Origin: Saccostrea echinata
Lineage: Eukaryota
Assembly (NCBI RefSeq): GCF_033153115.1
Contig: NW_026889809.1
Coordinates: forward strand, 5,456,001-5,520,000
Reading direction: 5' to 3'
DNA: 64,000 nucleotides
In this document: in pieces, positions 11,664 through 56,375 of the stretch
Position numbering within the stretch: position 1 is the stretch's first letter
How the letters are laid out: the number at the start of each line of letters is the position of its first letter
The notes under the pieces: model-generated
Told to the model about the DNA's origin: nothing
The model's input: the letters and a program-made list of their open reading frames with translations, nothing else
Databases searched by the model: none
Program-made: the position numbers and the translations under genes

Positions 11664-11741
<78 letters not shown>

Positions 11742-15006: not shown

Positions 15007-15037
<31 letters not shown>

Positions 15038-15504: not shown

Positions 15505-15739
15505 ATTAATGAAAGTCTCAAAGATGCAAGATGGAAATATCACTAAGTCATGGTGTCAATTAGTTTAATTTGATCGTCGCATTTTAGTAACAAGGTCAGG
15601 TCAAGGTTATTATCTTTTCCATTGTTATCAAGAACTAAACATTACTGTTGCTAGATATCCAATGCCTACTTCTATTTCAAAAAAGATGAAATGTTTCATT
15701 TTTCGCATAAAAAGATAATACCACATAAAGTCCATCAGA

Positions 15740-16490: not shown

Positions 16491-16617
16491 TATATAAAAG
16501 GCATTTCAGCAAATATACTTTAAACTTTTCATTTAGTCAGAAACCAGATAAGAATAATTCCTTACAATAGTTGCAGAAAAATATAGATCGCCAGAGTTCA
16601 CAAGTCGAGAAAAGATG
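16491..16617 (+). promoter_or_regulatory. Candidate TATA box and first exon of the chitinase gene, ending exactly on the start ATG
   Basis: TATATAAAAG at 16491-16500 and AAAGATG|GTAATA with ATG at 16615-16617. This supplies the phase-0 Met missing from the signal-peptide exon at 22344. Confidence 0.5.
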
Positions 16618-19600: not shown

Positions 19601-22600
19601 ATATTGTAAATGCTATCTTGTGATCTACTGAACATAAGGAGCTGTAACTGGGAAGAAAGCCCAAGTATTTCTTTACGTGGTTATAAGGACCTTAAGCTTA
19701 AAAAAATTGAAATAAAAAAAAAAAGCTTCAAGATTTGAATGAACAGTTACCACTAGAATAGTAAGAACATACCCTAACAAAATACTTTAGTAAACAAAAG
19801 TTTACTATAGTTAGCTATGATATCCTTATATAGTTTTAACTGTACTAAATCAAAGTATTTTCCAACGAAATTCAAATTGTTAATTTTCATTTTCTCATTC
19901 ATATTCTTTCACGCTTACGTCTGATATTTAAAGGAAATATAAAATGTGTATTCCCATTGAGTTTCCAAAATTTACATAATTGGTATGGATTTTTTTCGAA
20001 TAAACTTTTGGGGTAAAGTTTCATAGTTAATTAATGTATTCCACCCGTAACAGCCTTGAGCTCAGATTCAATAAAATTGAATGAACAACAGATATGTAAG
20101 GATATATATGGATTGTATACTCAATATATTTAGAAATAAATTCAATATTTTACTATTAGAATGTAAGAATAGAATGTGTCCTAATGAATGACCTTAACCT
20201 GTTCTTGAAGAGTTATCTCCTTGGAGTTGAATCAAGAAGCTACTTCGCAGTAGCTAAGTACTTTGTTACTACCTTGAAAATACGGATATATATTTAATTT
20301 ATAATAAATATATTATAATATACCGTATAAAAACTAATGAAAATGAAATCAAATCCGTAAAATGTATACAAAACTTGAGTGCGTTTTTAGATGAAAACCT
20401 AAATTTCAAAGAACATGTAAACAGGAAATGTCGTACAACAATGTTAAATTATCTAAGGATTAAATGTGTTCGAAAATATTGAACAAAGGAACCTACGGAA
20501 ATTTTGGTTTTATCATTAGTTATTTAATATTTAGACCATTGCAATGTTATTTTTTTTAGTACAGCACAATGCGAAATTCAGAATATATGTGCCAAGTTTG
20601 TATTAAATAGGAGAGAATTTGACAGTTCGAAAGGAGCTCTCTTTGATCTCAACTGGCTAGTTATAAAATCTAAGATATCAGTGAAAATTCTGACATTTAT
20701 GTATAACTGTTCAGTGGGCCAAGCACGAGAATATTTAACTTAACTTTTGCCAAAACAAACTTCAAATAAAAAATTGCATAAAAGAAAAACTTTCAGTTTT
20801 AGTACCAGCGGACCAAATTTGTGGACACTTTTGCATATTAAGCAATCAAAATCTATTGATGATTTCAAAAACAACTTAAAAACTTACTTCTTTAGAGACT
20901 TTCATGCTTTATTTTAATAATGACTCTACAATGTACATTTGTATACGTATATATCATATATAAATATCTTACAGTTTTATTGCCATTGAATACGTTTATG
21001 TAAAAATAGGCATTTAAACATAAAATCAGTTTCAGTAATTTCTGTGAAAAAAAAAATAAAAAAAATAATTTCAAAATTAAGGATTTTCTCCCTCATGCAT
21101 AGCTGTGATCCTTCAACGTAATTGGCTCCAGTCTTTGGCACCCCCTTTTTTCAGCTCTTTCAAGTTTTTTTTTATTATTTGAATTTTACGGATTTTCAAC
21201 GTTTCGGCATGAGCATCACTGAAGAGACATAATTTGTCGCATCTGGTGCATCAAAATTGGTACCGTATAAGACTTACATCCATTTTAATAAATCCGGAAA
21301 TCTGGAAAAATATCATTTTCAAGCTTTATTCTAATCCTAATGATTAAAGGCATCTATCCACCATAGCATTTATTGATATTCCTAGTATTTATATTTTTAT
21401 TTTTAAAGAATTTGTTTATCCTATAGATTTCAACGTATTCTTCTTTGATTAATTACTACTTACTAAATTACTTTAAAAAAATATTTTGGTAATACTCTTC
21501 TTCCCCAAAATACTTTAAATTAATACGGCTATATTTTATATGTAACGGATTCTTAATGATAGACAATGAAGTCCTATTAGGGGAACAAATCTAAGTATTA
21601 GTAGTAGCTAACTATAATATCTATGAGATCTATCTATAATGCATCGTAGTTAAGTATAATATCTATAGTTAACTATAGTAATTCTTTGTTTGGGATCTAT
21701 ACAATCTATATTCTAAGACGAATTCACGTTGTTTTTTAATATACAATTCACTTATTTTGTCTCGATATTAAACTTAATTTATGGTAACCGGCTATAGAAA
21801 TATATGATACGTAAAAAAAGAGAGATGTGGACCTTAATGCTCACTTTAAAAAATGCATGTCTGTCTCTTTCTATCCCTTTATGTAACCTGTATTAAGGAC
21901 AACATACTGTCTATATGTTTGAAAAATTGTAGTCTTTTTTTATTTGGATGTCAGCATATTTCTGTTTAATTCTTAGATCCCTTTTCTGCTCCTTCAACCC
22001 AACCCTCAGGTTAAGGGTGAGGATCACGAGAAAGGTGGTCGTGATGACATCGATCCAATTGAAAAAAGATGTTATTTTTATTTTGTTTATTCATATGTAA
22101 ACTTTTAACTTAAACTGTGGTCCCATTTCTAAGATTATGATTTAGATAGATTAAAATCTGCCCAACGTGAAAGTAGATTTATCTTAATAAAACTTCTCTC
22201 TTGTATCAAGGAGACTGTAAAACATTTTCTTTAATTTGAGGTACACAGAAATTATCTGCAATGTTTTCTTTTCAACACACTCTAGCAAACATGTCTGGAA
22301 AAAAATACATATATGCAATTAAATTAAGATTTCTTTTCAACAGAAGAAGGTGGCGGTCTTAGGATTAATAGTCATCATATTTAGAGGTACACAATCATTT
22401 CTTTTTTCTAAAAGATTAATGTCTGAAATCACCAAGTAAGAGAGTACTACCTAATGATCCTTAAATATGAATTCCGTTCATGAGGAGGTATTTGTACATA
22501 AAAATTTTATACATTTTCAATTCAGTCGTACAACCATATAAACGAGTATGCTACTTCACCAACTGGGCACAATACAGAACTGCTCCTATGACCTTCAAAG

Positions 22601-25600
22601 CGGATGATGTGGATCCTTTCCTCTGCACTCATATCATGTACGCTTTCGGTAAAGTCGTGGGCAACACAATCGATGCTTATGAGTGGAACGACAAGGGCAC
22701 CGGTGGTAAGTAACACGTCACCTAGGCCATTGTAGGTAGAATATAGATCATTTTCGGTAACGTGTCAGGTATTCAAGCTCTCGAGGCGACAAAAAAAACA
22801 CTGATGCCTTGCTTGGATTCGTTTGTACTCACATGTTGGACTATTCTCAATGCAGGCCAATACGAGAAGATAATGAACCTGCGATCCGTGAACCCAGACC
22901 TCAAGATCCTGCTGGCCATAGGTGGATGGACTCACGGCACCGCGCCCTTCACTGCCGTGGTAGATGACCCCAATGACATGGCAGCTTTTGCAAACAACGC
23001 CTTGGCCTACTTAAAAACTTACGGATTCGACGGTCTGGATCTGGACTGGGAGTATCCGGGTGGTAATGGAAGCCCTCCAGAGGACAAACAGCGTTTCACG
23101 TCTTTTGTGCAGGTCAGTATAACAAAAACTTCCGTTCCAGGGCAGCTGTATCAAGTCCACAGATCTTGCCACAAGGCTCCCACTATGTCTGTCTTCTCTT
23201 TCAGAAACTTCGCCAAGTGTTTGACGCTGATGGTGTAGCCAACAACCGCGCGCCTCTGTTACTGACGGCAGCTGTTGCAGCTGGCAAAAGTACAATCGAC
23301 AAAGCCTATGAAATTGACCTCATCTCCAAGTAAGTTGCATTCTGGCTGTGCCGGGTGCCTGATTTGCCAAGTGCACTCATGAGTTATTTTATTTCTTCTT
23401 CTGTATTTCAGAGAGCTAGATTTCATCAACCTAATGAGCTACGATCTTCATGGAAGCTGGGAAGCAACCACCGGACATCACAGTGCGCTATTTGGCCGTG
23501 CCGGTGAAGTTGGAACTGCTGCATATATGAATGTGGTAGGTTTGTCAGTTCGGGTATGATTTCCTCGCTAATAGATCTTTTGAATGTACTTGCCTCGCAT
23601 CTTTCATTCATTATTTGCGCAGGATTACGCGGTGAACTACTGGATTAATCTCGGTGCACCTCCAGAAAAACTGGTTTTGGGAATGGGTTTGTATGGCAGA
23701 TCCTTCACCCTCTCTAGTTCAAGTAATACAGGAGTAGGAGCGCCCGCCGTAGGAGCAGGAGCGGCTGGAACGTATACTGGAGAAGCAGGGTTGTTGGCCT
23801 ATTACGAGGCATGTAACGTTTTCCAGTCATTTCAATTAAGAAGTCACTTTTGCTGATCTAACAATTTGAACTCGAATGATTATAGCATTCGAAAAAAAAA
23901 AGAAGAGTACTCATCATTTTTACTAAGATCGGATCAAATGTTGCAGGTGTGTTATAATTTGAAATACAATGGTTGGACAAGACAGTGGCACGGTGAGCAC
24001 AAGGTACCGTATGCGTATCACGGTACCCAGTGGATTGGATATGACGACACAGAGAGTTTCCAAGTAAAGGTAAGCTTAAAGGGGAGAAGTGTCTAGGCCT
24101 AAGCTCCGATACAGTTACACAGCTTGCAATCCCACTGATGAATCTGGTCTGTCTAGACTATAATTTTCACTCGTTCTCTCGTTGAAAGGTTGACTACATC
24201 AAGTCCAAAGGACTGGGTGGCGGTATGGTTTGGTCTCTTGATCAAGACGATTTCAGCAACAGCTGTGGCGATGGGGCGTATCCTCTGATGAACTTATTGC
24301 GAAGTGAGCTGTCTGGATCACCTGTAGCTTCCACTCCTTTGCCACCATCATTGCATTCCTCCTCTCAAACTGTGCCATCCTCCTCCACTAGATTACCTAC
24401 CACCATTCCCAGCACTGCAGTGTCGGGATACAAACGAGTATGTTACTTCACCAACTGGGCACAATACAGAACTGCTCCTATGACCTTCAAAGCGGATGAT
24501 GTGGATCCTTTCCTCTGCACTCATATCATGTACGCTTTCGGTAAAGTCGTGGGCAACACAATCGATGCTTATGAGTGGAACGACAAGGGCACCGGTGGTA
24601 AGTAACACGTCACCTAGGCCATTGTAGGTAGAATATAGATCATTTTTGGTAACGTGTCAGGTATTCAAGCTCTCGAGGCGACAAAAAAAACACTGGTGCC
24701 TTGCTTGGATTCGTTTGTACTCACATGTTGGACTATTCTCAATGCAGGCCAATACGAGAAGATAATGAACCTGCGATCCGTGAACCCAGACCTCAAGATC
24801 CTGCTGGCCATAGGTGGATGGACTCACGGCACCGCGCCCTTCACTGCCGTGGTAGATGACCCCAATGACATGGCAGCTTTTGCAAACAACGCCTTGGCCT
24901 ACTTAAAAACTTACGGATTCGACGGTCTGGATCTGGACTGGGAGTATCCGGGTGGTAATGGAAGCCCTCCAGAGGACAAACAGCGTTTCACGTCTTTTGT
25001 GCAGGTCAGTATAACAAAAACTTCCGTTCCAGGGCAGCTGTATCAAGTCCACAGATCTTGCCACAAGGCTCCCACTATGTCTGTCTTCTCTTTCAGAAAC
25101 TTCGCCAAGTGTTTGACGCTGATGGTGTAGCCAACAACCGCGCGCCTCTGTTACTGACGGCAGCTGTTGCAGCTGGCAAAAGTACAATCGACAAAGCCTA
25201 TGAAATTGACCTCATCTCCAAGTAAGTTGCATTCTGGCTGTGCCGGGTGCCTGATTTGCCAAGTGCACTCATGAGTTATTTTATTTCTTCTTCTGTATTT
25301 CAGAGAGCTAGATTTCATCAACCTAATGAGCTACGATCTTCATGGAAGCTGGGAAGCAACCACCGGACATCACAGTGCGCTATTTGGCCGTGCCGGTGAA
25401 GTTGGAACTGCTGCATATATGAATGTGGTAGGTTTGTCAGTTCGGGTATGATTTCCTCGCTAATAGATCTTTTGAATGTACTTGCCTTGCATCTTTCATT
25501 CATTATTTGCGCAGGATTACGCGGTGAACTACTGGATTAATCTCGGTGCACCTCCAGAAAAACTGGTTTTGGGAATGGGTTTGTATGGCAGATCCTTCAC

Positions 25601-28600: not shown

Positions 28601-31600
28601 GATGGACTCACGGCACCGCGCCCTTCACTGCCGTGGTAGATGACCCCAATGACATGGCAGCTTTTGCAAACAACGCCTTGGCCTACTTAAAAACTTACGG
28701 ATTCGACGGTCTGGATCTGGACTGGGAGTATCCGGGTGGTAATGGAAGCCCTCCAGAGGACAAACAGCGTTTCACGTCTTTTGTGCAGGTCAGTATAACA
28801 AAAACTTCCGTTCCAGGGCAGCTGTATCAAGTCCACAGATCTTGCCACAAGGCTCCCACTATGTCTGTCTTCTCTTTCAGAAACTTCGCCAAGTGTTTGA
28901 CGCTGATGGTGTAGCCAACAACCGCGCGCCTCTGTTACTGACGGCAGCTGTTGCAGCTGGCAAAAGTACAATCGACAAAGCCTATGAAATTGACCTCATC
29001 TCCAAGTAAGTTGCATTCTGGCTGTGCCGGGTGCCTGATTTGCCAAGTGCACTCATGAGTTATTTTATTTCTTCTTCTGTATTTCAGAGAGCTAGATTTC
29101 ATCAACCTAATGAGCTACGATCTTCATGGAAGCTGGGAAGCAACCACCGGACATCACAGTGCGCTATTTGGCCGTGCCGGTGAAGTTGGAACTGCTGCAT
29201 ATATGAATGTGGTAGGTTTGTCAGTTCGGGTATGATTTCCTCGCTAATAGATCTTTTGAATGTACTTGCCTCGCATCTTTCATTCATTATTTGCGCAGGA
29301 TTACGCGGTGAACTACTGGATTAATCTCGGTGCACCTCCAGAAAAACTGGTTTTGGGAATGGGTTTGTATGGCAGATCCTTCACCCTCTCTAGTTCAAGT
29401 AATACAGGAGTAGGAGCGCCCGCCGTAGGAGCAGGAGCGGCTGGAACGTATACTGGAGAAGCAGGGTTGTTGGCCTATTACGAGGCATGTAACGTTTTCC
29501 AGTCATTTCAATTAAGAAGTCACTTTTGCTGATCTAACAATTTGAACTCGAATGATTATAGCATTCGAAAAAAAAAAGAAGAGTACTCATCATTTTTACT
29601 AAGATCGGATCAAATGTTGCAGGTGTGTTATAATTTGAAATACAATGGTTGGACAAGACAGTGGCACGGTGAGCACAAGGTACCGTATGCGTATCACGGT
29701 ACCCAGTGGATTGGATATGACGACACAGAGAGTTTCCAAGTAAAGGTAAGCTTAAAGGGGAGAAGTGTCTAGGCCTAAGCTCCGATACAGTTACACAGCT
29801 TGCAATCCCACTGATGAATCTGGTCTGTCTAGACTATAATTTTCACTCGTTCTCTCGTTGAAAGGTTGACTACATCAAGTCCAAAGGACTGGGTGGCGGT
29901 ATGGTTTGGTCTCTTGATCAAGACGATTTCAGCAACAGCTGTGGCGATGGGGCGTATCCTCTGATGAACTTATTGCGAAGTGAGCTGTCTGGATCACCTG
30001 TAGCTTCCACTCCTTTGCCACCATCATTGCATTCCTCCTCTCAAACTGTGCCATCCTCCTCCACTAGATTACCTACCACCATTCCCAGCACTGCAGTGTC
30101 GGGATACAAACGAGTATGTTACTTCACCAACTGGGCACAATACAGAACTGCTCCTATGACCTTCAAAGCGGATGATGTGGATCCTTTCCTCTGCACTCAT
30201 ATCATGTACGCTTTCGGTAAAGTCGTGGGCAACACAATCGATGCTTATGAGTGGAACGACAAGGGCACCGGTGGTAAGTAACACGTCACCTAGGCCATTG
30301 TAGGTAGAATATAGATCATTTTTGGTAACGTGTCAGGTATTCAAGCTCTCGAGGCGACAAAAAAAACACTGGTGCCTTGCTTGGATTCGTTTGTACTCAC
30401 ATGTTGGACTATTCTCAATGCAGGCCAATACGAGAAGATAATGAACCTGCGATCCGTGAACCCAGACCTCAAGATCCTGCTGGCCATAGGTGGATGGACT
30501 CACGGCACCGCGCCCTTCACTGCCGTGGTAGATGACCCCAATGACATGGCAGCTTTTGCAAACAACGCCTTGGCCTACTTAAAAACTTACGGATTCGACG
30601 GTCTGGATCTGGACTGGGAGTATCCGGGTGGTAATGGAAGCCCTCCAGAGGACAAACAGCGTTTCACGTCTTTTGTGCAGGTCAGTATAACAAAAACTTC
30701 CGTTCCAGGGCAGCTGTATCAAGTCCACAGATCTTGCCACAAGGCTCCCACTATGTCTGTCTTCTCTTTCAGAAACTTCGCCAAGTGTTTGACGCTGATG
30801 GTGTAGCCAACAACCGCGCGCCTCTGTTACTGACGGCAGCTGTTGCAGCTGGCAAAAGTACAATCGACAAAGCCTATGAAATTGACCTCATCTCCAAGTA
30901 AGTTGCATTCTGGCTGTGCCGGGTGCCTGATTTGCCAAGTGCACTCATGAGTTATTTTATTTCTTCTTCTGTATTTCAGAGAGCTAGATTTCATCAACCT
31001 AATGAGCTACGATCTTCATGGAAGCTGGGAAGCAACCACCGGACATCACAGTGCGCTATTTGGCCGTGCCGGTGAAGTTGGAACTGCTGCATATATGAAT
31101 GTGGTAGGTTTGTCAGTTCGGGTATGATTTCCTCGCTAATAGATCTTTTGAATGTACTTGCCTTGCATCTTTCATTCATTATTTGCGCAGGATTACGCGG
31201 TGAACTACTGGATTAATCTCGGTGCACCTCCAGAAAAACTGGTTTTGGGAATGGGTTTGTATGGCAGATCCTTCACCCTCTCTAGTTCCAGTAATACAGG
31301 AGTAGGAGCGCCCGCCGTAGGAGCAGGAGCGGCTGGAACGTATACTGGAGAAGCAGGGTTGTTGGCCTATTACGAGGCATGTAACGTTTTCCAGTCATTT
31401 CAATTAAGAAGTCACTTTTGCTGATCTAACAATTTGAACTCGAATGATTATAGCATTCGAAAAAAAAAAGAAGAGTACTCATCATTTTTACTAAGATCGG
31501 ATCAAATGTTGCAGGTGTGTTATAATTTGAAATACAATGGTTGGACAAGACAGTGGCACGGTGAGCACAAGGTACCGTATGCGTATCACGGTACCCAGTG

Positions 31601-34600
31601 GATTGGATATGACGACACAGAGAGTTTCCAAGTAAAGGTAAGCTTAAAGGGGAGAAGTGTCTAGGCCTAAGCTCCGATACAGTTACACAGCTTGCAATCC
31701 CACTGATGAATCTGGTCTGTCTAGACTATAATTTTCACTCGTCCTCTCGTTGATAGGTTGACTACATCAAGTCCAAAGGACTGGGTGGCGGTATGGTTTG
31801 GTCTCTTGATCAAGACGATTTCAGCAACAGCTGTGGCGATGGGGCGTATCCTCTGATGAACTTATTGCGAAGTGAGCTGTCTGGATCACCTGTAGCTTCC
31901 ACTCCTTTGCCACCATCATTGCATTCCTCCTCTCAAACTGTGCCATCCTCCTCCACTAGATTACCTACCACCATTCCCAGCACTGCAGTGTCGGGATACA
32001 AACGAGTATGTTACTTCACCAACTGGGCACAATACAGAACTGCTCCTATGACCTTCAAAGCGGATGATGTGGATCCTTTCCTCTGCACTCATATCATGTA
32101 CGCTTTCGGTAAAGTCGTGGGCAACACAATCGATGCTTATGAGTGGAACGACAAGGGCACCGGTGGTAAGTAACACGTCACCTAGGCCATTGTAGGTAGA
32201 ATATAGATCATTTTCGGTAACGTGTCAGGTATTCAAGCTCTCGAGGCGACAAAAAAAACACTGGTGCCTTGCTTGGATTCGTTTGTACTCACATGTTGGA
32301 CTATTCTCAATGCAGGCCAATACGAGAAGATAATGAACCTGCGATCCGTGAACCCAGACCTCAAGATCCTGCTGGCCATAGGTGGATGGACTCACGGCAC
32401 CGCGCCCTTCACTGCCGTGGTAGATGACCCCAATGACATGGCAGCTTTTGCAAACAACGCCTTGGCCTACTTAAAAACTTACGGATTCGACGGTCTGGAT
32501 CTGGACTGGGAGTATCCGGGTGGTAATGGAAGCCCTCCAGAGGACAAACAGCGTTTCACGTCTTTTGTGCAGGTCAGTATAACAAAAACTTCCGTTCCAG
32601 GGCAGCTGTATCAAGTCCACAGATCTTGCCACAAGGCTCCCACTATGTCTGTCTTCTCTTTCAGAAACTTCGCCAAGTGTTTGACGCTGATGGTGTAGCC
32701 AACAACCGCGCGCCTCTGTTACTGACGGCAGCTGTTGCAGCTGGCAAAAGTACAATCGACAAAGCCTATGAAATTGACCTCATCTCCAAGTAAGTTGCAT
32801 TCTGGCTGTGCCGGGTGCCTGATTTGCCAAGTGCACTCATGAGTTATTTTATTTCTTCTTCTGTATTTCAGAGAGCTAGATTTCATCAACCTAATGAGCT
32901 ACGATCTTCATGGAAGCTGGGAAGCAACCACCGGACATCACAGTGCGCTATTTGGCCGTGCCGGTGAAGTTGGAACTGCTGCATATATGAATGTGGTAGG
33001 TTTGTCAGTTCGGGTATGATTTCCTCGCTAATAGATCTTTTGAATGTACTTGCCTCGCATCTTTCATTCATTATTTGCGCAGGATTACGCGGTGAACTAC
33101 TGGATTAATCTCGGTGCACCTCCAGAAAAACTGGTTTTGGGAATGGGTTTGTATGGCAGATCCTTCACCCTCTCTAGTTCCAGTAATACAGGAGTAGGAG
33201 CGCCCGCCGTAGGAGCAGGAGCGGCTGGAACGTATACTGGAGAAGCAGGGTTGTTGGCCTATTACGAGGCATGTAACGTTTTCCAGTCATTTCAATTAAG
33301 AAGTCACTTTTGCTGATCTAACAATTTGAACTCGAATGATTATAGCATTCGAAAAAAAAAAGAAGAGTACTCATCATTTTTACTAAGATCGGATCAAATG
33401 TTGCAGGTGTGTTATAATTTGAAATACAATGGTTGGACAAGACAGTGGCACGGTGAGCACAAGGTACCGTATGCGTATCACGGTACCCAGTGGATTGGAT
33501 ATGACGACACAGAGAGTTTCCAAGTAAAGGTAAGCTTAAAGGGGAGAAGTGTCTAGGCCTAAGCTCCGATACAGTTACACAGCTTGCAATCCCACTGATG
33601 AATCTGGTCTGTCTAGACTATAATTTTCACTCGTCCTCTCGTTGATAGGTTGACTACATCAAGTCCAAAGGACTGGGTGGCGGTATGGTTTGGTCTCTTG
33701 ATCAAGACGATTTCAGCAACAGCTGTGGCGATGGGGCGTATCCTCTGATGAACTTATTGCGAAGTGAGCTGTCTGGATCACCTGTAGCTTCCACTCCTTT
33801 GCCACCATCATTGCATTCCTCCTCTCAAACTGTGCCATCCTCCTCCACTAGATTACCTACCACCATTCCCAGCACTGCAGTGTCGGGATACAAACGAGTA
33901 TGTTACTTCACCAACTGGGCACAATACAGAACTGCTCCTATGACCTTCAAAGCGGATGATGTGGATCCTTTCCTCTGCACTCATATCATGTACGCTTTCG
34001 GTAAAGTCGTGGGCAACACAATCGATGCTTATGAGTGGAACGACAAGGGCACCGGTGGTAAGTAACACGTCACCTAGGCCATTGTAGGTAGAATATAGAT
34101 CATTTTCGGTAACGTGTCAGGTATTCAAGCTCTCGAGGCGACAAAAAAAACACTGGTGCCTTGCTTGGATTCGTTTGTACTCACATGTTGGACTATTCTC
34201 AATGCAGGCCAATACGAGAAGATAATGAACCTGCGATCCGTGAACCCAGACCTCAAGATCCTGCTGGCCATAGGTGGATGGACTCACGGCACCGCGCCCT
34301 TCACTGCCGTGGTAGATGACCCCAATGACATGGCAGCTTTTGCAAACAACGCCTTGGCCTACTTAAAAACTTACGGATTCGACGGTCTGGATCTGGACTG
34401 GGAGTATCCGGGTGGTAATGGAAGCCCTCCAGAGGACAAACAGCGTTTCACGTCTTTTGTGCAGGTCAGTATAACAAAAACTTCCGTTCCAGGGCAGCTG
34501 TATCAAGTCCACAGATCTTGCCACAAGGCTCCCACTATGTCTGTCTTCTCTTTCAGAAACTTCGCCAAGTGTTTGACGCTGATGGTGTAGCCAACAACCG

Positions 34601-37600
34601 CGCGCCTCTGTTACTGACGGCAGCTGTTGCAGCTGGCAAAAGTACAATCGACAAAGCCTATGAAATTGACCTCATCTCCAAGTAAGTTGCATTCTGGCTG
34701 TGCCGGGTGCCTGATTTGCCAAGTGCACTCATGAGTTATTTTATTTCTTCTTCTGTATTTCAGAGAGCTAGATTTCATCAACCTAATGAGCTACGATCTT
34801 CATGGAAGCTGGGAAGCAACCACCGGACATCACAGTGCGCTATTTGGCCGTGCCGGTGAAGTTGGAACTGCTGCATATATGAATGTGGTAGGTTTGTCAG
34901 TTCGGGTATGATTTCCTCGCTAATAGATCTTTTGAATGTACTTGCCTCGCATCTTTCATTCATTATTTGCGCAGGATTACGCGGTGAACTACTGGATTAA
35001 TCTCGGTGCACCTCCAGAAAAACTGGTTTTGGGAATGGGTTTGTATGGCAGATCCTTCACCCTCTCTAGTTCCAGTAATACAGGAGTAGGAGCGCCCGCC
35101 GTAGGAGCAGGAGCGGCTGGAACGTATACTGGAGAAGCAGGGTTGTTGGCCTATTACGAGGCATGTAACGTTTTCCAGTCATTTCAATTAAGAAGTCACT
35201 TTTGCTGATCTAACAATTTGAACTCGAATGATTATAGCATTCGAAAAAAAAAAGAAGAGTACTCATCATTTTTACTAAGATCGGATCAAATGTTGCAGGT
35301 GTGTTATAATTTGAAATACAATGGTTGGACAAGACAGTGGCACGGTGAGCACAAGGTACCGTATGCGTATCACGGTACCCAGTGGATTGGATATGACGAC
35401 ACAGAGAGTTTCCAAGTAAAGGTAAGCTTAAAGGGGAGAAGTGTCTAGGCCTAAGCTCCGATACAGTTACACAGCTTGCAATCCCACTGATGAATCTGGT
35501 CTGTCTAGACTATAATTTTCACTCGTCCTCTCGTTGATAGGTTGACTACATCAAGTCCAAAGGACTGGGTGGCGGTATGGTTTGGTCTCTTGATCAAGAC
35601 GATTTCAGCAACAGCTGTGGCGATGGGGCGTATCCTCTGATGAACTTATTGCGAAGTGAGCTGTCTGGATCACCTGTAGCTTCCACTCCTTTGCCACCAT
35701 CATTGCATTCCTCCTCTCAAACTGTGCCATCCTCCTCCACTAGATTACCTACCACCATTCCCAGCACTGCAGTGTCGGGATACAAACGAGTATGTTACTT
35801 CACCAACTGGGCACAATACAGAACTGCTCCTATGACCTTCAAAGCGGATGATGTGGATCCTTTCCTCTGCACTCATATCATGTACGCTTTCGGTAAAGTC
35901 GTGGGCAACACAATCGATGCTTATGAGTGGAACGACAAGGGCACCGGTGGTAAGTAACACGTCACCTAGGCCATTGTAGGTAGAATATAGATCATTTTCG
36001 GTAACGTGTCAGGTATTCAAGCTCTCGAGGCGACAAAAAAAACACTGGTGCCTTGCTTGGATTCGTTTGTACTCACATGTTGGACTATTCTCAATGCAGG
36101 CCAATACGAGAAGATAATGAACCTGCGATCCGTGAACCCAGACCTCAAGATCCTGCTGGCCATAGGTGGATGGACTCACGGCACCGCGCCCTTCACTGCC
36201 GTGGTAGATGACCCCAATGACATGGCAGCTTTTGCAAACAACGCCTTGGCCTACTTAAAAACTTACGGATTCGACGGTCTGGATCTGGACTGGGAGTATC
36301 CGGGTGGTAATGGAAGCCCTCCAGAGGACAAACAGCGTTTCACGTCTTTTGTGCAGGTCAGTATAACAAAAACTTCCGTTCCAGGGCAGCTGTATCAATT
36401 CCACAGATCTTGCCACAAGGCTCCCACTATGTCTGTCTTCTCTTTCAGAAACTTCGCCAAGTGTTTGACGCTGATGGTGTAGCCAACAACCGCGCGCCTC
36501 TGTTACTGACGGCAGCTGTTGCAGCTGGCAAAAGTACAATCGACAAAGCCTATGAAATTGACCTCATCTCCAAGTAAGTTGCATTCTGGCTGTGCCGGGT
36601 GCCTGATTTGCCAAGTGCACTCATGAGTTATTTTATTTCTTCTTCTGTATTTCAGAGAGCTAGATTTCATCAACCTAATGAGCTACGATCTTCATGGAAG
36701 CTGGGAAGCAACCACCGGACATCACAGTGCGCTATTTGGCCGTGCCGGTGAAGTTGGAACTGCTGCATATATGAATGTGGTAGGTTTGTCAGTTCGGGTA
36801 TGATTTCCTCGCTAATAGATCTTTTGAATGTACTTGCCTCGCATCTTTCATTCATTATTTGCGCAGGATTACGCGGTGAACTACTGGATTAATCTCGGTG
36901 CACCTCCAGAAAAACTGGTTTTGGGAATGGGTTTGTATGGCAGATCCTTCACCCTCTCTAGTTCCAGTAATACAGGAGTAGGAGCGCCCGCCGTAGGAGC
37001 AGGAGCGGCTGGAACGTATACTGGAGAAGCAGGGTTGTTGGCCTATTACGAGGCATGTAACGTTTTCCAGTCATTTCAATTAAGAAGTCACTTTTGCTGA
37101 TCTAACAATTTGAACTCGAATGATTATAGCATTCGAAAAAAAAAAAGAAGAGTACTCATCATTTTTACTAAGATCGGATCAAATGTTGCAGGTGTGTTAT
37201 AATTTGAAATACAATGGTTGGACAAGACAGTGGCACGGTGAGCACAAGGTACCGTATGCGTATCACGGTACCCAGTGGATTGGATATGACGACACAGAGA
37301 GTTTCCAAGTAAAGGTAAGCTTAAAGGGGAGAAGTGTCTAGGCCTAAGCTCCGATACAGTTACACAGCTTGCAATCCCACTGATGAATCTGGTCTGTCTA
37401 GACTATAATTTTCACTCGTCCTCTCGTTGATAGGTTGACTACATCAAGTCCAAAGGACTGGGTGGCGGTATGGTTTGGTCTCTTGATCAAGACGATTTCA
37501 GCAACAGCTGTGGCGATGGGGCGTATCCTCTGATGAACTTATTGCGAAGTGAGCTGTCTGGATCACCTGTAGCTTCCACTCCTTTGCCACCATCATTGCA

Positions 37601-40600
37601 TTCCTCCTCTCAAACTGTGCCATCCTCCTCCACTAGATTACCTACCACCATTCCCAGCACTGCAGTGTCGGGATACAAACGAGTATGTTACTTCACCAAC
37701 TGGGCACAATACAGAACTGCTCCTATGACCTTCAAAGCGGATGATGTGGATCCTTTCCTCTGCACTCATATCATGTACGCTTTCGGTAAAGTCGTGGGCA
37801 ACACAATCGATGCTTATGAGTGGAACGACAAGGGCACCGGTGGTAAGTAACACGTCACCTAGGCCATTGTAGGTAGAATATAGATCATTTTCGGTAACGT
37901 GTCAGGTATTCAAGCTCTCGAGGCGACAAAAAAAACACTGGTGCCTTGCTTGGATTCGTTTGTACTCACATGTTGGACTATTCTCAATGCAGGCCAATAC
38001 GAGAAGATAATGAACCTGCGATCCGTGAACCCAGACCTCAAGATCCTGCTGGCCATAGGTGGATGGACTCACGGCACCGCGCCCTTCACTGCCGTGGTAG
38101 ATGACCCCAATGACATGGCAGCTTTTGCAAACAACGCCTTGGCCTACTTAAAAACTTACGGATTCGACGGTCTGGATCTGGACTGGGAGTATCCGGGTGG
38201 TAATGGAAGCCCTCCAGAGGACAAACAGCGTTTCACGTCTTTTGTGCAGGTCAGTATAACAAAAACTTCCGTTCCAGGGCAGCTGTATCAAGTCCACAGA
38301 TCTTGCCACAAGGCTCCCACTATGTCTGTCTTCTCTTTCAGAAACTTCGCCAAGTGTTTGACGCTGATGGTGTAGCCAACAACCGCGCGCCTCTGTTACT
38401 GACGGCAGCTGTTGCAGCTGGCAAAAGTACAATCGACAAAGCCTATGAAATTGACCTCATCTCCAAGTAAGTTGCATTCTGGCTGTGCCGGGTGCCTGAT
38501 TTGCCAAGTGCACTCATGAGTTATTTTATTTCTTCTTCTGTATTTCAGAGAGCTAGATTTCATCAACCTAATGAGCTACGATCTTCATGGAAGCTGGGAA
38601 GCAACCACCGGACATCACAGTGCGCTATTTGGCCGTGCCGGTGAAGTTGGAACTGCTGCATATATGAATGTGGTAGGTTTGTCAGTTCGGGTATGATTTC
38701 CTCGCTAATAGATCTTTTGAATGTACTTGCCTCGCATCTTTCATTCAATATTTGCGCAGGATTACGCGGTGAACTACTGGATTAATCTCGGTGCACCTCC
38801 AGAAAAACTGGTTTTGGGAATGGGTTTGTATGGCAGATCCTTCACCCTCTCTAGTTCCAGTAATACAGGAGTAGGAGCGCCCGCCGTAGGAGCAGGAGCG
38901 GCTGGAACGTATACTGGAGAAGCAGGGTTGTTGGCCTATTACGAGGCATGTAACGTTTTCCAGTCATTTCAATTAAGAAGTCACTTTTGCTGATCTAACA
39001 ATTTGAACTCGAATGATTATAGCATTCGAAAAAAAAAAGAAGAGTACTCATCATTTTTACTAAGATCGGATCAAATGTTGCAGGTGTGTTATAATTTGAA
39101 ATACAATGGTTGGACAAGACAGTGGCACGGTGAGCACAAGGTACCGTATGCGTATCACGGTACCCAGTGGATTGGATATGACGACACAGAGAGTTTCCAA
39201 GTAAAGGTAAGCTTAAAGGGGAGAAGTGTCTAGGCCTAAGCTCCGATACAGTTACACAGCTTGCAATCCCACTGATGAATCTGGTCTGTCTAGACTATAA
39301 TTTTCACTCGTCCTCTCGTTGATAGGTTGACTACATCAAGTCCAAAGGACTGGGTGGCGGTATGGTTTGGTCTCTTGATCAAGACGATTTCAGCAACAGC
39401 TGTGGCGATGGGGCGTATCCTCTGATGAACTTATTGCGAAGTGAGCTGTCTGGATCATCTGTAGTATCTTCAATGATACCTTCAACAAACTCTTCGTCTA
39501 AAGTCTTTACTTCATCTCTTCCTCCACAAGATTCAACCGTTGGAACAACTGGATCTTCTAGTTCAAACTATTATGTATCCACAGATATCCAAGTAAACAG
39601 TGAGGGGACAACGCAGTCCCACACAGTTTCAACAGAGATTGTTTATACAACGAAATCGGCTATCTGTGGAGGTAATCGTTATGACTTCTGCTCTTATAAG
39701 ATATAAAAAAAATTCAGAAAAGCATACTGTGTAGATAATATTCAAAGAAATTTTTACAGCACCAAAGTCATGTGTAGATGGTCAATTTTATGAGGACAGC
39801 TGTGACATTCGCAAGTACTACCAGTGTTCGTCTGGTGTTGCATGGCACTACGAGTGTGCTACTGGAACAGTGTGGGATAAACGAATCCAAAATTGTAACT
39901 GGGATTACCTCGTCCTTACTTCGTCTGCACCCTGTGGCTGTGGTCGTAAGTTCAATCATGATGCATATTTTTACTCGTTTATCCAACATGTTTCGAATTT
40001 TCTCGACGAAAAAGTATATGTCAATGGTATATATTTAACAGTTTGTCTTCTAAATTTCAGCTCCATCAGATTGTATTCATGGAAAGTTTTATGAAGACAA
40101 ATGCGATATGAAACTTTACTACCAATGTGCACATGGTATTCCTTATCCATATGAATGCCATCCTGGAACTCTTTGGGATGTAACAATTACTAATTGTAAT
40201 TGGGAGTATGCAGTAGCCAGCAGAACACTCCCGACTGGATCAGATTGCAGCAGTTATGGTACAACTCATTTACCTGGTCAGCAGACTACTGTTCCATCTA
40301 CACAGACCCAAAAGCAAATTTCTGAAAAGACTTCCCAGCACACAGAACATTCAACTTCTGATTCCACGAATAGAGATTTCTCAACTGTGAAAGTCTCCAC
40401 TTCCTCAAGCACACACACACCGTCTGCTGATCAAACTATAGCCAAAACTCAATCAACCGAAATACCTCCTGCCTCTCAGTCATACACATCCGTAACACTT
40501 GTGTCAACAAGCCAGGTTACTACACTCCAGTCAAGCATATTCACTAAGCAACCCATTGTTTCTTCGACCTTTTTATCTACATCTTCCCCAAAAAGTGAAA

Positions 40601-41434
40601 CTCAAACTAAGGAACAATCCAGGACTTCGTCTCTCTTTACTACAACAGATGGTCCTGTATCACTATCCCGGCAACAAACAACATCATTCCGTACTGTCCC
40701 CACTGATCAGACACAAACCCGTCAACAAGCTACAACGCCTTCCTATATTGCCACTACAGGCCGCACATCATCAAAAATTCAGCACCAAACAACTACGGAT
40801 CTCACTTCGTTACAAACTCACCAAAATACAGCAACTTTGTCATCTGTTACCACAACAGATGGCACACGAACAAGCCATCAGCAGACATCAATGTTGCCCA
40901 ATGTTGCTTCTACAAATGGCTCAGTATCTCAAGTAGAAAAACAGATAACATCATCCCCTGTTGCAACAACAAATGGCGCACTTTCTCAAGTTCAACAACA
41001 GACAACAACATCGCACCATACTGTCACCACGAATGACTCAATATCACAGGCTCAACAACAGTCTACCGCACAAACCCAAACGACAACCGCTTGTGGACGT
41101 GAGTTATACTCTAGGAAATATTACCCGTTTTTATTTTCGACCAAACATATTTGAAACGCTCAGTCCTTTAAAAAAATGAATTTTTCACAATAAATTAATG
41201 CAACTTTTTAAAATAAAGTGAGTATTATTAAATTTAACAACCAAAGAAGGGTTGTTGAATTTTCAACGCATCCAGTATACTTTTTAATGTACATTTACTC
41301 ATTATTACCCTTTATTTTCAGCTCCTGACACTTGTCCATTTCCGGCTTGGGATTCTGGAAGCACAACTATGACGTCACACTATCTTCTAATTCCTTTAGG
41401 AGTTCTATTAGCATTTATTTTCTCATATTTATAG
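16615..41434 (+). CDS. Giant multi-domain GH18 chitinase: signal peptide + 9 x GH18 catalytic domains + 2 x CBM14 + Ser/Thr stalk + GPI-type C-terminus (~4171 aa, ~60 coding exons)
   Basis: Exons: 16615-16617 (ATG, least certain), 22344-22386, 22526-22705. Per unit (unit 1 coordinates, add 1892 each, +1 from within unit 8): 22856-23112, 23205-23329, 23412-23535, 23623-23808, 23947-24069, 24189-24597. Terminal exons: 39326-39671, 39760-39945, 40061-41098, 41322-41434. All phases match. Motifs per unit: [30 protein letters not shown] (intact DxDxE), [46 protein letters not shown]-terminus [19 protein letters not shown]. Confidence 0.88.
16700..19200 (+). mobile_element. Decayed non-LTR retrotransposon (LINE) ORF2 remnant in the presumed first intron of the chitinase
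   Basis: From ~17585: [36 protein letters not shown](fs)LD, later [21 protein letters not shown] (RT motifs). Many stops and frameshifts. Boundaries are approximate. Confidence 0.75.
20360..21030 (+). mobile_element. 5'-truncated L2/CR1-type LINE 3' fragment
   Basis: [56 protein letters not shown]... to [12 protein letters not shown], typical post-RT C-terminal region. Confidence 0.7.
21080..21280 (+). mobile_element. Penelope-type terminal-repeat fragment with a degenerate hammerhead-like core
   Basis: CTCCCTCATGCATAGCT...GAGCATCACTGAAGAGACATAATTTGTCGCATCTGGTGCATCAAAATTGGTACCGTATAA. CTGAAGA and the GACA/TGTC stem are present, GAAA is absent. The family is recognised from memory. Confidence 0.45.
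22537..39464 (+). repeat. Intragenic tandem array: 9 units of 1892 bp (exons and introns), >99% identical
   Basis: Domain starts at 22537, 24429, 26321, 28213, 30105, 31997, 33889, 35781 and 37674. The ORF track repeats with the same period. I found only a handful of intronic or synonymous differences by eye. Confidence 0.98.
39760..40250 (+). other. Two CBM14 (peritrophin-A type) chitin-binding domains of the chitinase
   Basis: [45 protein letters not shown] and [45 protein letters not shown]. Cys spacing and aromatic residues fit CBM14. Confidence 0.85.
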
Positions 41435-41527
41435 TTGTTTAATTGCTTTTCAAAGCTTGACGTGTCTATCACGACGCAGAACCACAATTACATAGACATG
41501 TGCTTAGTAAATTCTTTTATTAACTGT

Positions 41528-41891
41528 CACTGGTGCTTGAGGACAGGACCCCCCCCCCCCCCCAACTATAGACCCCGGGCCTTTTCGACTATTTTCTCAT
41601 AACTTATCTTTCAATGACATATTTGTGATATAATCTATACCAACAATTGGAAAATTACCTAAAGCAAACATTTTATAAAATCCACCCAACTCTCTCTATA
41701 TAAATCAACTTATATATATAGAGAAGGGTAGTAATTTTTATGAAATGTTTGTTTCAGCCAATTTTTCGAATTGATAATATAGATTATATCACAAATGTGT
41801 CATCTATATATAATTTATCAGAAAAAAAGTCGAACAGGCCCGGGGGTCTTTATGGGGGAGGGGGGGGGGATCCTGTCCTCAAGCACCTGTG
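41528..41891. mobile_element. Foldback MITE with 8-bp TSD in the chitinase 3' UTR
   Basis: TTAACTGT|CACTGGTGCTTGAGGACAGGA ... TCCTGTCCTCAAGCACCTGTG|TTAACTGT. The arms pair imperfectly almost to the centre. AATAAA follows at 41921. Confidence 0.85.
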
Positions 41892-42505
41892 TTAACTGTC
41901 TGTGATATTAGTTATTCAAAAATAAAATAATATTTAATACTTGATTCATAATCCTTCTTTATTATAACGTTAAATCACATTATAAATATTCTCTTAAGAA
42001 TAGAACATGTTTGACCAATTGTTAAGAAAAATGCTTTCAACAAAATGTATAACAATTTGTTTCATAAGTCAAAGTGCGCAAATAATTTCATCACTTATCA
42101 AAGACGTGTTTGTGACAGTTTTGCTTCGAAATAATCATAAAAGAATTTTATCTACATTTATTTATATTTTTTAATAATGAATCTGAATTCGTGCCATTTT
42201 TTGAAATTATTAGATGTATGATAAAAGGATTCTTTCCAATGGTGTTAAAATCAGTGGCTGATTCAAGGGGGGATCGGGAAACACATCTCCCCCGGTCTTT
42301 AATTTAATCCGTATTTTATTATGTAAAGTCAAATTACATAATTGGATTGGACATCAGGCATGGCCTATATGTCCTCTCCAAGAAGGTCAAGGTTACAAAT
42401 GTTAAGAATTGACAATGGTTTACAATGATGAAATAGTTCATAACAAATTACATTACTAGTAATTTCTAATGTAAACTAGAAAAGGAAGAAATGAAAAATA
42501 TAAAG

Positions 42506-42735
42506 AAGATGGGCGAACAAGGCGAGCGCAATGCCTATAGTGCGACAATCATGAAGGTGAAAACTTAAATCTCAATTATAACAAATTTTTCCTTGTTATT
42601 TTTAATAGCGGAATAAATTTTTGCCGAGAAAATTTTCCTCAGAAAAGTTTTGTTTATCATAATTTCATAAAATTTAATTGTGATTTTTACATATCTGAAG
42701 CTATAGGCATTCTGCGCGCCTTGTTCACCCATCTT
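42506..42735. mobile_element. MITE with ~35-bp imperfect TIR
   Basis: AAGATGGGCGAACAAGGCGAGCGCAATGCCTATAG ... CTATAGGCATTCTGCGCGCCTTGTTCACCCATCTT. Confidence 0.7.
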
Positions 42736-42779: not shown

Positions 42780-43080
42780 GTCGCCCGCGTGGCGCAGTGG
42801 TTAGAGCGTCTGCTCTAGAGTCGCGGAGTAGGGAGTTGATCCTTACGTCGCGGGTTCGAATCCCACTGTGGGACGTGGAGACCGGTCCTTCGGATGAGAC
42901 CGTATAAACCGAGGCCCCGTGTCGCAGTAGGTGCTGGCACGAAAAAGATCCCTCACAGCTCAATGGCCGTAAGTGCCGAGTATAGGACAAAATTTGCAGC
43001 TCTCCACCGGGAAGTGGTGGCGTCTTTATATGAGTGAAAAATTCTCGAGAGGGACGTTAAACAACATACAAACAAACAAA
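42780..43080 (+). mobile_element. Full-length tRNA-derived SINE (Deu/Nin-like central domain)
   Basis: A box TGGCGCAGTGG (42790-42800), B box GGTTCGAATCC (42853-42863), core GGTCCTTCGGATGAGACCGTATAAACCGAGG, (CAAA)n tail. 12-bp TSD CATTATATAATA / CATTATACAATA with one mismatch. Confidence 0.88.
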
Positions 43081-43803: not shown

Positions 43804-46603
43804 AACAAGAGGCCCAAGGGCCTTAACGGTCACCTGAGTATAATGTAATGATCCATAGATTAAAACAAAATAAGCTGATAAATAAAGCTTTGTTTTCCAA
43901 AAGCAAGAGAAATAGGATGATCAGGGATCAGAAAAATATTAATTTAGTACTCCATAACAAATCTTAAAGTTGATCTATTTATTTGCCTGTACTTTCCCCA
44001 TTTGTCACTATCCTCATGCGGACAAACAAAACAATAGTTCTAGAGCACTATTAGTTAACACAATTCACCCCCCCCCCCCCTGCACTGGCCTCTCTTGATC
44101 TTTAAAGATTATATATTGTACAAAGATATGATAATTTTGTCCCATTTTCATTTATCTATTATTTAAAAGTTTACCTGACCATTAAAAACTATGAAAGTAC
44201 TTTTGTATTAAATATTATAAAATTTCTTGTATAATTCTGTTATTCAATTGACCTTTTAAGTTACATTATTTACAGTGATTAACTATTATATGTGAATAGC
44301 AAAGGGGAATAACTTCTTTCAGTAGAAATAAATAAATTGACCAAAGGGTACAGAATTTCAAACTTTGGTAAAAACATCCCTGTTTATTACAACTTTGTAT
44401 ACTTTATTTGCCTCCTTCATGCCCAGGAGCAGAGAAGATTTTCAAGGAAATAATCAATTTTCACTATAGATTCAATATAGCCCCACGCTAACACCAATGC
44501 CCCTGACCCAGGGGCCAAGATATTCACAATTTTGGAAGCTGCACTCTTGCTCATTATAACCATGTACATAGTATGTTTCCTTAATAACAATGGGCAAAGA
44601 ACAAGATTTTCAAAGAAATAATGCATTTCTACTATATATTCAAAAGAGCCTCACCCTAACACCAAAATCCCTGACCCCGTGGCTATGTATTTTAACTTTT
44701 AAGAAAAGTTTTCCTTGCTCGTCATAACCATGCAATTAGTTTTTCTGTTAATTACCCCGGGGCAGAGAAGATTTTCAACAAAAAATTGCATTACACTATA
44801 CATTTAATAGACCCCCCCCCCCAAAACATGAACCCCTGGGGCCACAAATTTCACAATTTTGGAAGAGGCATCCTTAATCAACATAAATATGCACTTAATA
44901 GAACCCCTCCCTAACACCAGAACCACTGACCCAGGGACCAAGATATACATAATTTTGAAAGAGATGTCCTTGCTCATCATAACTATATACTTCGATTATC
45001 TGCTAAATATCTAGGAGCAGAGAAGAAGATTTTAAAAGAAATAATGCACTTTCACTATGTAATCAATAGTGCCACCCCCTCCCCTCCCTCGCAGAACCCT
45101 TCACCCTGGGGCCACAAATTTCACAATTTTGGAAGAGGCACCCTTGATCATCATAACTATATATTCGGTTTATCCGCTTAATACCTAGGAGCACAGAAGA
45201 AGATTTTTAAAGAAATAATGCACTTTCACTATATAATCAATAGAGACCCCCCTTCCCGCTGAACCCTCACCCTGGGGCCACAAATTTCACAATTTTGGAA
45301 GAGGCACTATTGATCATCATAACCATTCACTTAGTTTATCTGCTTAATATACAGAGGGAGAGAATAAGATTTTTAAAGAATTTATGCATTTTCGCTATTT
45401 GATCAATAGAGCCCCACCCTAACACCAGAACCCCTGATCCAGGGGCCAAGATATTCACAATTTTGGAAGATGTGACCTTGCTCATAATAACTATATACTT
45501 GGTTTATCTGCTAAATACCTAGGAACACAGAAGAAGATTTTTTTAAAGAAATAATGCACTTTCACAATATAATGAATAGAACCCTCCGTCCCACAGAACC
45601 CCTCACCCTGGGGCCACAAATTTCACATTGATCATCATTACCATATACCTAGTTTATCTTCTTTATATACAGTGGGAGAGAAGAAGGTTTTTAAAGAATT
45701 TATGCATTTTCACTATATAATCAATAGAGCCCCGCCCTAACACTCGAACCCCAGACCCAAGGACCATGAAATTCATAATTTTAGAAGAGGCATCCTTCTT
45801 TATTATAACTATCGACTTAATACACCGACTTAATACCCAGGAGCAGAGAAGAAGATTTTCAAAGAAGTAATGCATTTTCACTATATTACCATTAGAGCCC
45901 CGCCCTAACACCAGAACCCCTAATCCAGGGGCCATGAAATTCACAATTTTAGAAGAGGCACCCCTCCTCATCATAACTATAATTTAGTTCATCGGCTTAA
46001 TACCCAGGACCAGAGGAAAAGATTTTCAAAGAATTAATGCATTTTCACTATATTATCATTAGAGCCCCGCTCCAACACCAGTACCCCTGACCCAGGGGCC
46101 TTGAAATTCACAATTTTAAAAGAGACCCCCCCCCCTTCATCATAACTATGTACTTAGTTCGTCGGCTAAATACCCAGGAGCAGAGGAGAAGATTTTTAAA
46201 GAATTAATGCATTTTCACTATATAATCATTAGAGCCCCGCCCTAGCGCCAGAACCCCTGACCTGGGGCCATAAATTTCACAATTTTGGTAGAGGACTCAA
46301 TGCTTATTACAATCATGCAAACAGTTTGACTGCTTGATGTCCAGGAGTAAAGAAGAAGATTTTTAAAGATTGCATTAATTTTAGTGGTTTGGCCCCATCC
46401 CTCAGGCCCCAGGGGGGTAGGGACCATGAAATTCACAAACTTTGTCCCCCTTCACCCATAGATGCTATATGCCAAAATTGGTTGAAAATGGTTGTGCGGT
46501 TTCAGAAAAGAAGCTGAAAATGTTCTAATGTTAAAGCACGATGCACGCCGACGGAGACGAAAACGGATGGCAATAGGTCACCTGAGTAAACTCAGGTGAC
46601 CTA
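43804..46603 (+). mobile_element. Helentron-associated element (HINE) carrying a ~166-180-bp satellite array
   Basis: Start AACAAGAGGCCCAAGGGCCTTAACGGTCACCTGAGT. About 12 diverged repeats (CCAGGGGCCATGAAATTCACAATTTT..AGAAGATTTT) at 44350-46450. End hairpin TAGGTCACCTGAGT-AA-ACTCAGGTGACCTA (46574-46603) matches the subterminal repeat. Confidence 0.85.
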
Positions 46604-55738: not shown

Positions 55739-56375
55739 AACAAGAGGCCCATGGGCCATAATGCTCACCTGAGTAAATTTGGCCCTGCTGTTCTTCACCT
55801 GATTTCCTCCCATGTAATACCTATTGTGACCCTGTCCTACCCCCAGGGGTCATGAATTGAATTTAGAATCTACACTACCCCAGGATGCTTTCACTTAAGT
55901 TTCAGCTTTTCTGGCCCAGTGGTTCTTGAGAAGAAGATTTTTAAAGATTTTTCCTATATATTTTAATGTAAAACTTAGATTCCTTAATGTGACCTCACCC
56001 TACCCCCAGGGGCCATGATTTGAACAAATTAGAATCTACACTACCCCAGGCTGCTTCCACATAAGTTTCAGCTTTTCTGGCCCAGTGGTTCTTGAGAGGA
56101 AGATTTTTTAAAGATTTTTCCTATACATCTCAATGTAAAAATTGAAATCCTCATTGTAGCCTTGCCCTAACCCCAGGGGTCATGATTTGAACAATCTAGA
56201 TTCTTCAGTACCCCAGGATGCTTCCACATAAGTTTCAGCTTTTCTGGCCAATTGGTTCTTGAGAAGAAGATTTTTTAATGACCCCATCCTATTTTTTTTC
56301 TTGATTATCTCCCCTTGGAAGGGGGCTTGGTCCTTTATTTTAATAATTTAACCCCCCTTCACCCAAGGATGCTTT
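55739..56375 (+). mobile_element. Truncated HINE with ~166-bp satellite (Cg170/HindIII-like) units
   Basis: Start AACAAGAGGCCCATGGGCCATAATGCTCACCTGAGT, then three units CCCCAGGGGCCATGATTTGAACAAATTAGAATCTACACTACCCCAGG..TTCTTGAGAAGAAGATTTTT. The 3' hairpin is missing. Confidence 0.8.

What the first reader, a model, noticed from the sequence alone, without database searches (positions are those of the whole stretch)
41322..41434. Chitinase ends in a GPI-anchor-type signal: a surface-tethered poly-enzyme on a mucin stalk
Seen: the final exon, which the ORF track misses, reads [37 protein letters not shown]. That is small residues (DSG/S), a ~10-aa spacer and a hydrophobic tail with no cytoplasmic residues, preceded by ~280 aa of Ser/Thr/Gln-rich sequence. 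Established: this is the canonical GPI-addition layout. Inference: nine catalytic heads and two CBM14 would be held away from an epithelial surface and possibly shed by phospholipase.
Basis: partly seen in the sequence, partly recalled or inferred. Interest (0 to 1): 0.7.

Follow-up and report, generated by a model that had tools for sequence, protein, structure and literature searches.

The report
Oyster nine-headed chitinase with GPI-type tail
An oyster gene encodes nine near-identical chitin-cutting domains in a row, two chitin-binding domains, a long Ser/Thr/Gln-rich stalk and a spliced, conserved last exon that is predicted to swap its tail for a lipid (GPI) anchor, which would tether the enzyme to the cell surface; membrane-anchored oyster chitinases are known, nine heads is the unusual part.

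Summary
Observation confirmed. Exon 41322-41434 reads as stated, follows a 280-aa stalk (S+T 44%), and the 41098>41322 GT-AG junction is in a spliced contig. RefSeq already uses this exon (P0121). Orthologue models from five oyster species keep [15 protein letters not shown] invariant, then diverge while staying hydrophobic, with no basic cytosolic flank: the pattern of a GPI-addition signal (omega D or S). A scallop relative and a second oyster chitinase lineage end the same way. No trained predictor or experiment was run, so GPI is predicted (about 0.8). The idea is not new in kind: GPI chitinases with Ser/Thr stalks exist in fungi, and oyster Cg-Chit/Ca-Chit were published with C-terminal 'membrane anchors'. 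More unusual is the upstream array: nine 1892-bp GH18 units (99.6-100% identical, introns included) in one 4171-aa frame, seven on the apparent second allele, each allele homogenised on its own. RefSeq splits it at a GC-AG intron in each unit. A full nine-head mRNA is not shown. Phospholipase shedding and tissue are untested.

The parts
16615..16617 (+). Probable one-codon first coding exon (ATG|gtaata)
   Evidence: Inferred: 1 of 12 ATG|GT(A/G) candidates in 9100-22343, 1 of 2 with a TATA-like box within 160 nt upstream; same bases on C34; no read support
22344..22386 (+). Signal-peptide-like exon ([14 protein letters not shown])
   Evidence: Holds the most hydrophobic 15-mer of the model, KD 2.55; matches orthologue N-termini P0122, P0123, P0135
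22526..39460 (+). Nine tandem GH18 units, period 1892 bp (one 1893), 408 aa each with an S/T/P linker; six introns per unit, one of them GC-AG
   Evidence: 0-8 differences between units 1-8, no stop, catalytic motif in 9 of 9
23809..23946 (+). GC-AG intron of unit 1 (repeated in all nine units); RefSeq models stop inside it
   Evidence: GAG|gcatgt donor; a 138-nt skip in one X2 contig, short side only 27 nt; P0141, P0143-P0145 end in its read-through
39461..39671 (+). Unique S/T-rich linker after the ninth GH18
   Evidence: X1 contig joins 39082-39204 to 39324-39552
39760..39945 (+). CBM14 no. 1 exon
   Evidence: PF01607 38.9 bits
40061..40248 (+). CBM14 no. 2
   Evidence: PF01607 29.1 bits; junction 39945>40061 in X1 and X2
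40249..41088 (+). 280-aa Ser/Thr/Gln-rich mucin-like stalk
   Evidence: Composition; O-glycosylation inferred
41099..41321 (+). Last intron, GT-AG, phase 1
   Evidence: Spliced in X1 contig
41322..41434 (+). Last coding exon with GPI-type signal
   Evidence: identical on C34
41351..41362 (+). Predicted omega region D-S-G-S (omega D4145 or S4146 of the model)
   Evidence: Same two candidates in 6 of 6 orthologue models run
41384..41431 (+). 16-aa uncharged hydrophobic tail running to the stop
   Evidence: Mean KD 2.46
41435..41926 (+). Probable 3' UTR with a MITE-like inverted repeat (41528-41891) and AATAAA at 41921
   Evidence: X1 contig reaches 41522; repeat; polyA site inferred

Best explanation
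The exon is the spliced end of an oyster GH18 chitinase gene and encodes a predicted GPI-addition signal, so the enzyme would be held on the outer cell surface by a lipid anchor at the end of a likely O-glycosylated stalk. Inferred mechanism: the N-terminal signal sends the chain into the ER; GPI transamidase cuts after D4145 (or S4146), discards the 26-27-residue tail and attaches GPI; the stalk lifts two CBM14 and up to nine intact GH18 domains off the membrane, where they bind and cut chitin in contact with the cell, most likely at a gut/digestive-gland or mantle epithelium. The number of heads is set by a tandem DNA array that expands, contracts and is homogenised by unequal exchange (nine here, seven on the apparent other allele), raising catalytic dose per anchor.
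For: Shown: splice junction in a contig; open 4171-aa frame with canonical splice sites, 50 GT-AG and 9 GC-AG; 16 of 16 units on C60 and C34 are stop-free and all indels are intronic; invariance across S. echinata, O. edulis, C. virginica, M. angulata and M. gigas models ends at WDSGS, then tails differ in sequence and length (23-29 aa from the Ser) but stay hydrophobic; 6 of 6 such models pass my GPI rule at the same two sites against 3 of 120 GH18 homologues, two of which are these orthologues; scallop P0191 ends Cys-x4-Cys..NSGS+hydrophobic tail after near-identical GH18 pairs, CBM14 and a Thr stalk, and is sister to the oyster clade (local support 94); PIG-T exons in G000. Within species units are 99.4-99.7% identical, between genera about 92%; four intron positions are fixed differently in all units of each allele.
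Against: No trained GPI predictor or experiment; my rule is post hoc and misses P0150/P0183-P0185, whose tails hold an Arg. The best 19-residue window has KD 1.7-2.2, enough for a marginal membrane helix. Splice support is one contig from one run. Mussel relatives with similar CBM14 (P0005-P0007) end without such a tail. RefSeq breaks the array into separate genes. Only one of three scallop models in the cluster carries the tail. Tissue is unknown.
Confidence: 0.75

Rival explanations
1. The tail stays on as a short C-terminal transmembrane helix (type I protein with almost no cytosolic part), as TMHMM-based papers proposed for other oyster chitinases.
For: 19-21-residue windows reach KD 1.6-2.2; Ca-Chit was described with a 23-aa transmembrane anchor after a Thr-rich region (PMC4457423).
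Against: Hydrophobic core only about 13-16 aa, with Pro in three of four genera; 0 residues follow it here and in C. virginica, and no conserved basic flank in any; conserved small-residue DSGS sits 7-8 aa upstream.
Confidence: 0.12
2. The tail is a GPI signal, but most protein has far fewer than nine heads, because the GC-AG introns are retained (stop in each), whole units are skipped in frame, or the array length is an assembly error.
For: RefSeq models end inside the GC-AG intron; identical units make unit skipping invisible to short reads; support for the GC-AG splice is one X2 contig with a 27-nt side.
Against: GC donor is near consensus (GAG|gcatgt); the linker and next domain lie inside one exon with no stop; C60 and C34 carry separate arrays with private variants; O. 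edulis and S. cucullata models also run domain-linker-domain.
Confidence: 0.3
3. The main product is soluble: the last intron is kept (frame stops at 41152-41154 after [20 protein letters not shown]) or GPI is not added and the protein is secreted.
For: Some database models end in the equivalent read-through (P0029, P0136, P0138, P0140); AATAAA occurs inside the intron at 41189 and 41212.
Against: Those read-through peptides are not conserved between genera, while the last exon is; the X1 contig is spliced across the intron; a 7-nt deletion on C34 removes the 41189 hexamer.
Confidence: 0.08

Closest known systems
Oyster membrane-anchored GH18 chitinases Ca-Chit (C. angulata, PMC4457423) and Cg-Chit (C. 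gigas, Badariotti et al., cited there)
   Same: Oyster GH18, Thr-rich region, C-terminal hydrophobic 'membrane anchor'; Ca-Chit has two catalytic domains and is expressed in the digestive system.
   Different: Read as transmembrane, not GPI. Ca-Chit was described without CBM14. This locus has nine near-identical heads and two CBM14. It looks like a paralogue of Ca-Chit (the paper's primer reads HLIYAF, this gene HIMYAF); I did not fetch either published sequence.
Fungal GPI-anchored subgroup B chitinases (A. nidulans ChiA, A. fumigatus ChiA1, Metarhizium ChiMaB7; PMC4169460 passages)
   Same: GH18 + large Ser/Thr-rich region + GPI anchor.
   Different: Plant-type class III fungal enzymes with one catalytic domain (recalled), no CBM14; independent origin inferred.
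Insect group II chitinases (Cht10)
   Same: Several GH18 domains and CBM14 in one chain; 4-5 catalytic domains (PMC9574080 passages).
   Different: Their domains are old and divergent and form a separate clade; here nine copies are identical in protein; no GPI signature was found in the nine Rhodnius chitinases.
Single-head orthologues in Magallana/Crassostrea (P0122, P0123, P0135) and scallop 'chitinase 3' P0191
   Same: Same last-exon signal, CBM14 and stalk; P0191 has two 98.8% identical GH18.
   Different: Magallana/Crassostrea have one GH18 and four CBM14; none of these is described as GPI-anchored in the papers found.

Membership tests
GPI-anchored proteins | N-terminal ER signal peptide | tested here: inconclusive
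   Basic n-region plus 11-aa hydrophobic core, shared with orthologues; no SignalP, first exon inferred, cleavage site unclear
GPI-anchored proteins | Small residues at omega..omega+2, 17-31 aa from the end | tested here: met
   D-S-G (27 from end) or S-G-S (26) in 6 of 6 models run; rule set recalled from textbook description
GPI-anchored proteins | Polar spacer then hydrophobic tail without cytosolic domain | tested here: met
   7-8 aa spacer, 16-aa tail KD 2.46, nothing after it
GPI-anchored proteins | No internal transmembrane segment | tested here: met
   Apart from the two termini the best 15-mer has KD 1.28
GPI-anchored proteins | Trained-predictor call; covalent GPI, PI-PLC release | not testable with these tools
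   No NetGPI/PredGPI or bench data
GH18 chitinases (active) | PF00704 domain with DxxDxDxE | tested here: met
   85.5 bits for one exon; [11 protein letters not shown] in 9 of 9 units; activity not assayed
Insect group II chitinases (Cht10) | GH18 domains fall in the Cht10 clade | tested here: not met
   Window unit sits in a 100-support oyster clade apart from the Phlebotomus/Kerria multi-domain clade (quick and FastTree trees; 'Cht10' labels are mine, from length and domain count)
Insect group II chitinases (Cht10) | 4-5 catalytic domains in one chain | tested here: not met
   Nine here, seven on C34
Type I single-pass membrane proteins | About 20-aa helix followed by basic cytosolic residues | tested here: not met
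   No residue after the tail here or in C. virginica; 5-6 residues with at most one Arg in Magallana/Ostrea

The most novel reading that the evidence does not exclude
A bivalve-wide GPI-anchored chitinase, older than the oyster-scallop split, has in rock oysters become a 450-kDa nine-headed enzyme whose number of active sites is an allelic copy-number polymorphism (9 versus 7) kept identical by concerted evolution and hidden from annotation by a GC-AG intron in every unit; and the 'transmembrane anchors' published for oyster chitinases are in fact GPI signals.
Probability: 0.45. Interest if true: 0.55.

Novelty: new variant of a known kind. Interest (0 to 1): 0.42.

Why it matters
It would add an animal GH18 to the GPI-anchored chitinases known from fungi, re-read the published membrane anchors of oyster chitinases, and give a testable case of enzyme valency varying between alleles. 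It also shows how a repeated GC-AG intron makes annotation split one very large gene into many. It does not open a new mechanism class.

Tried and rejected
No RNA holder on record was listed; X1 and X2 are 'RNA?' contigs of one study. X1 has no cover over the inter-unit linker, the signal exon or the proposed ATG exon: no evidence either way. The X2 contig over linker and next domain lies within one exon and X2 also holds unspliced pieces, so it was not counted as proof of transcription. Search for a GPI-PLD-type domain (PF00882) in G000 found no match; exon-wise search, so absence is not shown and shedding stays open. The last exon alone matches no Pfam family. Alternative acceptors to 50000 gave no better terminal exon among the 25 best-scored listed. 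The Cg-Chit paper is not held; unnamed 555-573-aa proteins P0163/P0164 could not be tied to Cg-Chit. The careful tree did not finish; quick and FastTree trees were used. First splice scripts had offset errors (part of 59), corrected. Papers PMC6822432 and PMC11083476 (passages) had no bearing. P0149 passes my rule but its end looks like intron read-through and was not counted; P0042 and fish P0200 pass and were not followed. Earlier-findings look-ups returned nothing. No structure or complex was predicted.

Full report
Observation. The long ORF 40054-41154 carries the second CBM14 and the stalk. One X1 contig of 933 nt covers 40367-41098 and 41322-41522 across this GT-AG intron. The RefSeq protein P0121 (Saccostrea echinata) equals the last 511 residues of my model, last exon included, so the exon is already annotated, although as an 'uncharacterized' protein cut off from the chitinase domains. 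The exon occurs twice in G000, here and on C34, identical.

Gene anatomy. The model has 60 exons and 4171 residues (about 453 kDa before glycans): an inferred ATG exon at 16615, a signal-like exon, nine GH18 units of 1892 bp, a linker, two CBM14, a 280-aa stalk and the last exon. Of 59 introns 50 are GT-AG and 9 are GC-AG, one per unit. An X1 contig joins the ninth GH18 to the unique C-terminal part (39082-39204 to 39324-39552), so the tail belongs to a chitinase transcript. The junction 39671>39760 was not among the joints listed.

Is it a GPI signal? Orthologue models of O. edulis, C. virginica, M. angulata and M. gigas keep [15 protein letters not shown] and then differ freely, staying hydrophobic to or near the end. 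That is what a cleaved GPI pro-peptide looks like: the retained side and cut site conserved, the discarded tail conserved only in character (established knowledge, recalled). I wrote a rule for the textbook layout after seeing the sequence. It passes 6 of 6 models run (P0121, P0023, P0028, P0135, P0122, P0123) at the same two sites; models that lack the exon (P0029, P0124, P0136, P0138, P0140, P0188) and three more that have it (P0125, P0126, P0134) were not run in that set. It passes 3 of 120 listed GH18 homologues, 0 of 221 and 1 of 371 pseudo-exons, 1.3% of base shuffles and 2.6% of residue shuffles. A transmembrane reading is weaker: short core, no basic flank, nothing after the tail here. 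The genome holds a Gpi16/PIG-T gene. None of this replaces a predictor or an assay.

How widespread. Of 149 representatives scanned, 2 pass. One, P0191, is a Mizuhopecten chitinase: two GH18, CBM14, a Thr-rich stalk, a two-Cys motif and NSGS plus hydrophobic tail; its first two domains are 98.8% identical and group as sister to the oyster clade with local support 94. Of 20 hits to a paralogous exon, 4 pass, three of them a GH18-CBM14 lineage ending N(S/T/A)G plus hydrophobic tail, which favours Asp as omega here. Mytilus relatives end without a tail.

The array. Units 1-8 differ by 0-8 bases. C34 carries a copy with seven units and 99.3-99.6% identical flanks, most likely the other allele. All 16 units splice without a stop; the nine window units are identical over the first 363 residues and C34 shows four substitutions. 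Four intron positions are fixed differently in every unit of each allele. O. edulis and S. cucullata models also run domain-linker-domain with 99.4-99.7% identity within species and about 92% between genera, while Magallana/Crassostrea have one GH18 and four CBM14. This is the signature of concerted evolution (inference). RefSeq splits the array at the GC donors. The GC-AG splice has only weak read support (one X2 contig, 27-nt side), and no read spans the array.

Mechanism. Shown: exon use, frame, domains, conservation. Inferred: ER entry, cut after D4145 or S4146, GPI addition, O-glycosylated extended stalk, chitin binding and cleavage at the cell surface. Tissue is unknown; molluscan chitinases are mostly expressed in hepatopancreas, mantle or eye (PMC7560691, passages). 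Shedding is untested.

Known kin. PMC4457423 (parts 1-3 of 4 read) describes Ca-Chit with two GH18, a Thr-rich region and a C-terminal transmembrane anchor, and says C. gigas Cg-Chit was the first GH18 with one; the Cg-Chit paper itself was seen only as a reference (PMC1945033 passages). PMC4169460 (passages) gives fungal GPI-anchored, Ser/Thr-rich chitinases. PMC9574080 (passages) gives 4-5 catalytic domains for insect group II and no GPI signature in Rhodnius. Searches for a GPI-anchored bivalve chitinase and for chitinases with six to nine catalytic domains listed no paper describing either; I saw only listings and the library lacks most subscription journals. No supplements were read; those of PMC7560691 may show the domain layout of the C. 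gigas orthologue.

Verdict. Real, conserved, probably GPI; a new variant of a known kind. The nine-unit, allele-variable array is the more surprising part and needs long reads.

Noticed in passing
window 22526-39460; G000:C34:4349549-4362682: Nine versus seven GH18 units on two apparent alleles, with allele-fixed intron variants in all units; window units 1/4 and 2/5 share variants, suggesting a three-unit duplication.
   Followed up: yes
window 39760, 40061, 41322: The last exon begins like the two CBM14 exons (phase-1 intron in CG|xPxxC), so it may derive from a CBM14 exon; its two Cys could form a small loop above the anchor, echoed in scallop P0191.
   Followed up: partly
window 41528-41891: MITE-like element with 52-nt arms (85% complementary) in the probable 3' UTR, before AATAAA at 41921; a second inverted-repeat element at 42506-42735.
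   Followed up: partly
window 42783-42874: ARAGORN calls tRNA-Ser(aga); it may be the head of a tRNA-derived SINE.
   Followed up: no
window 7768-9093: 441-aa Gly/Ser/Pro/Phe-rich repetitive ORF with Tyr-rich start and GGYGGY end, no Pfam match; resembles glycine-rich shell-matrix proteins (recalled).
   Followed up: no
G000:C34:5949793-6009186 and C2:3791698-3893687: Two further GH18 clusters; P0165 from the C34 cluster also ends in a GPI-type tail, and P0148 has two near-identical GH18 domains.
   Followed up: partly
window 44897-46294, 55836-56278, 57158-63399: Satellite-like arrays of period 167-168 and 433 bp.
   Followed up: no
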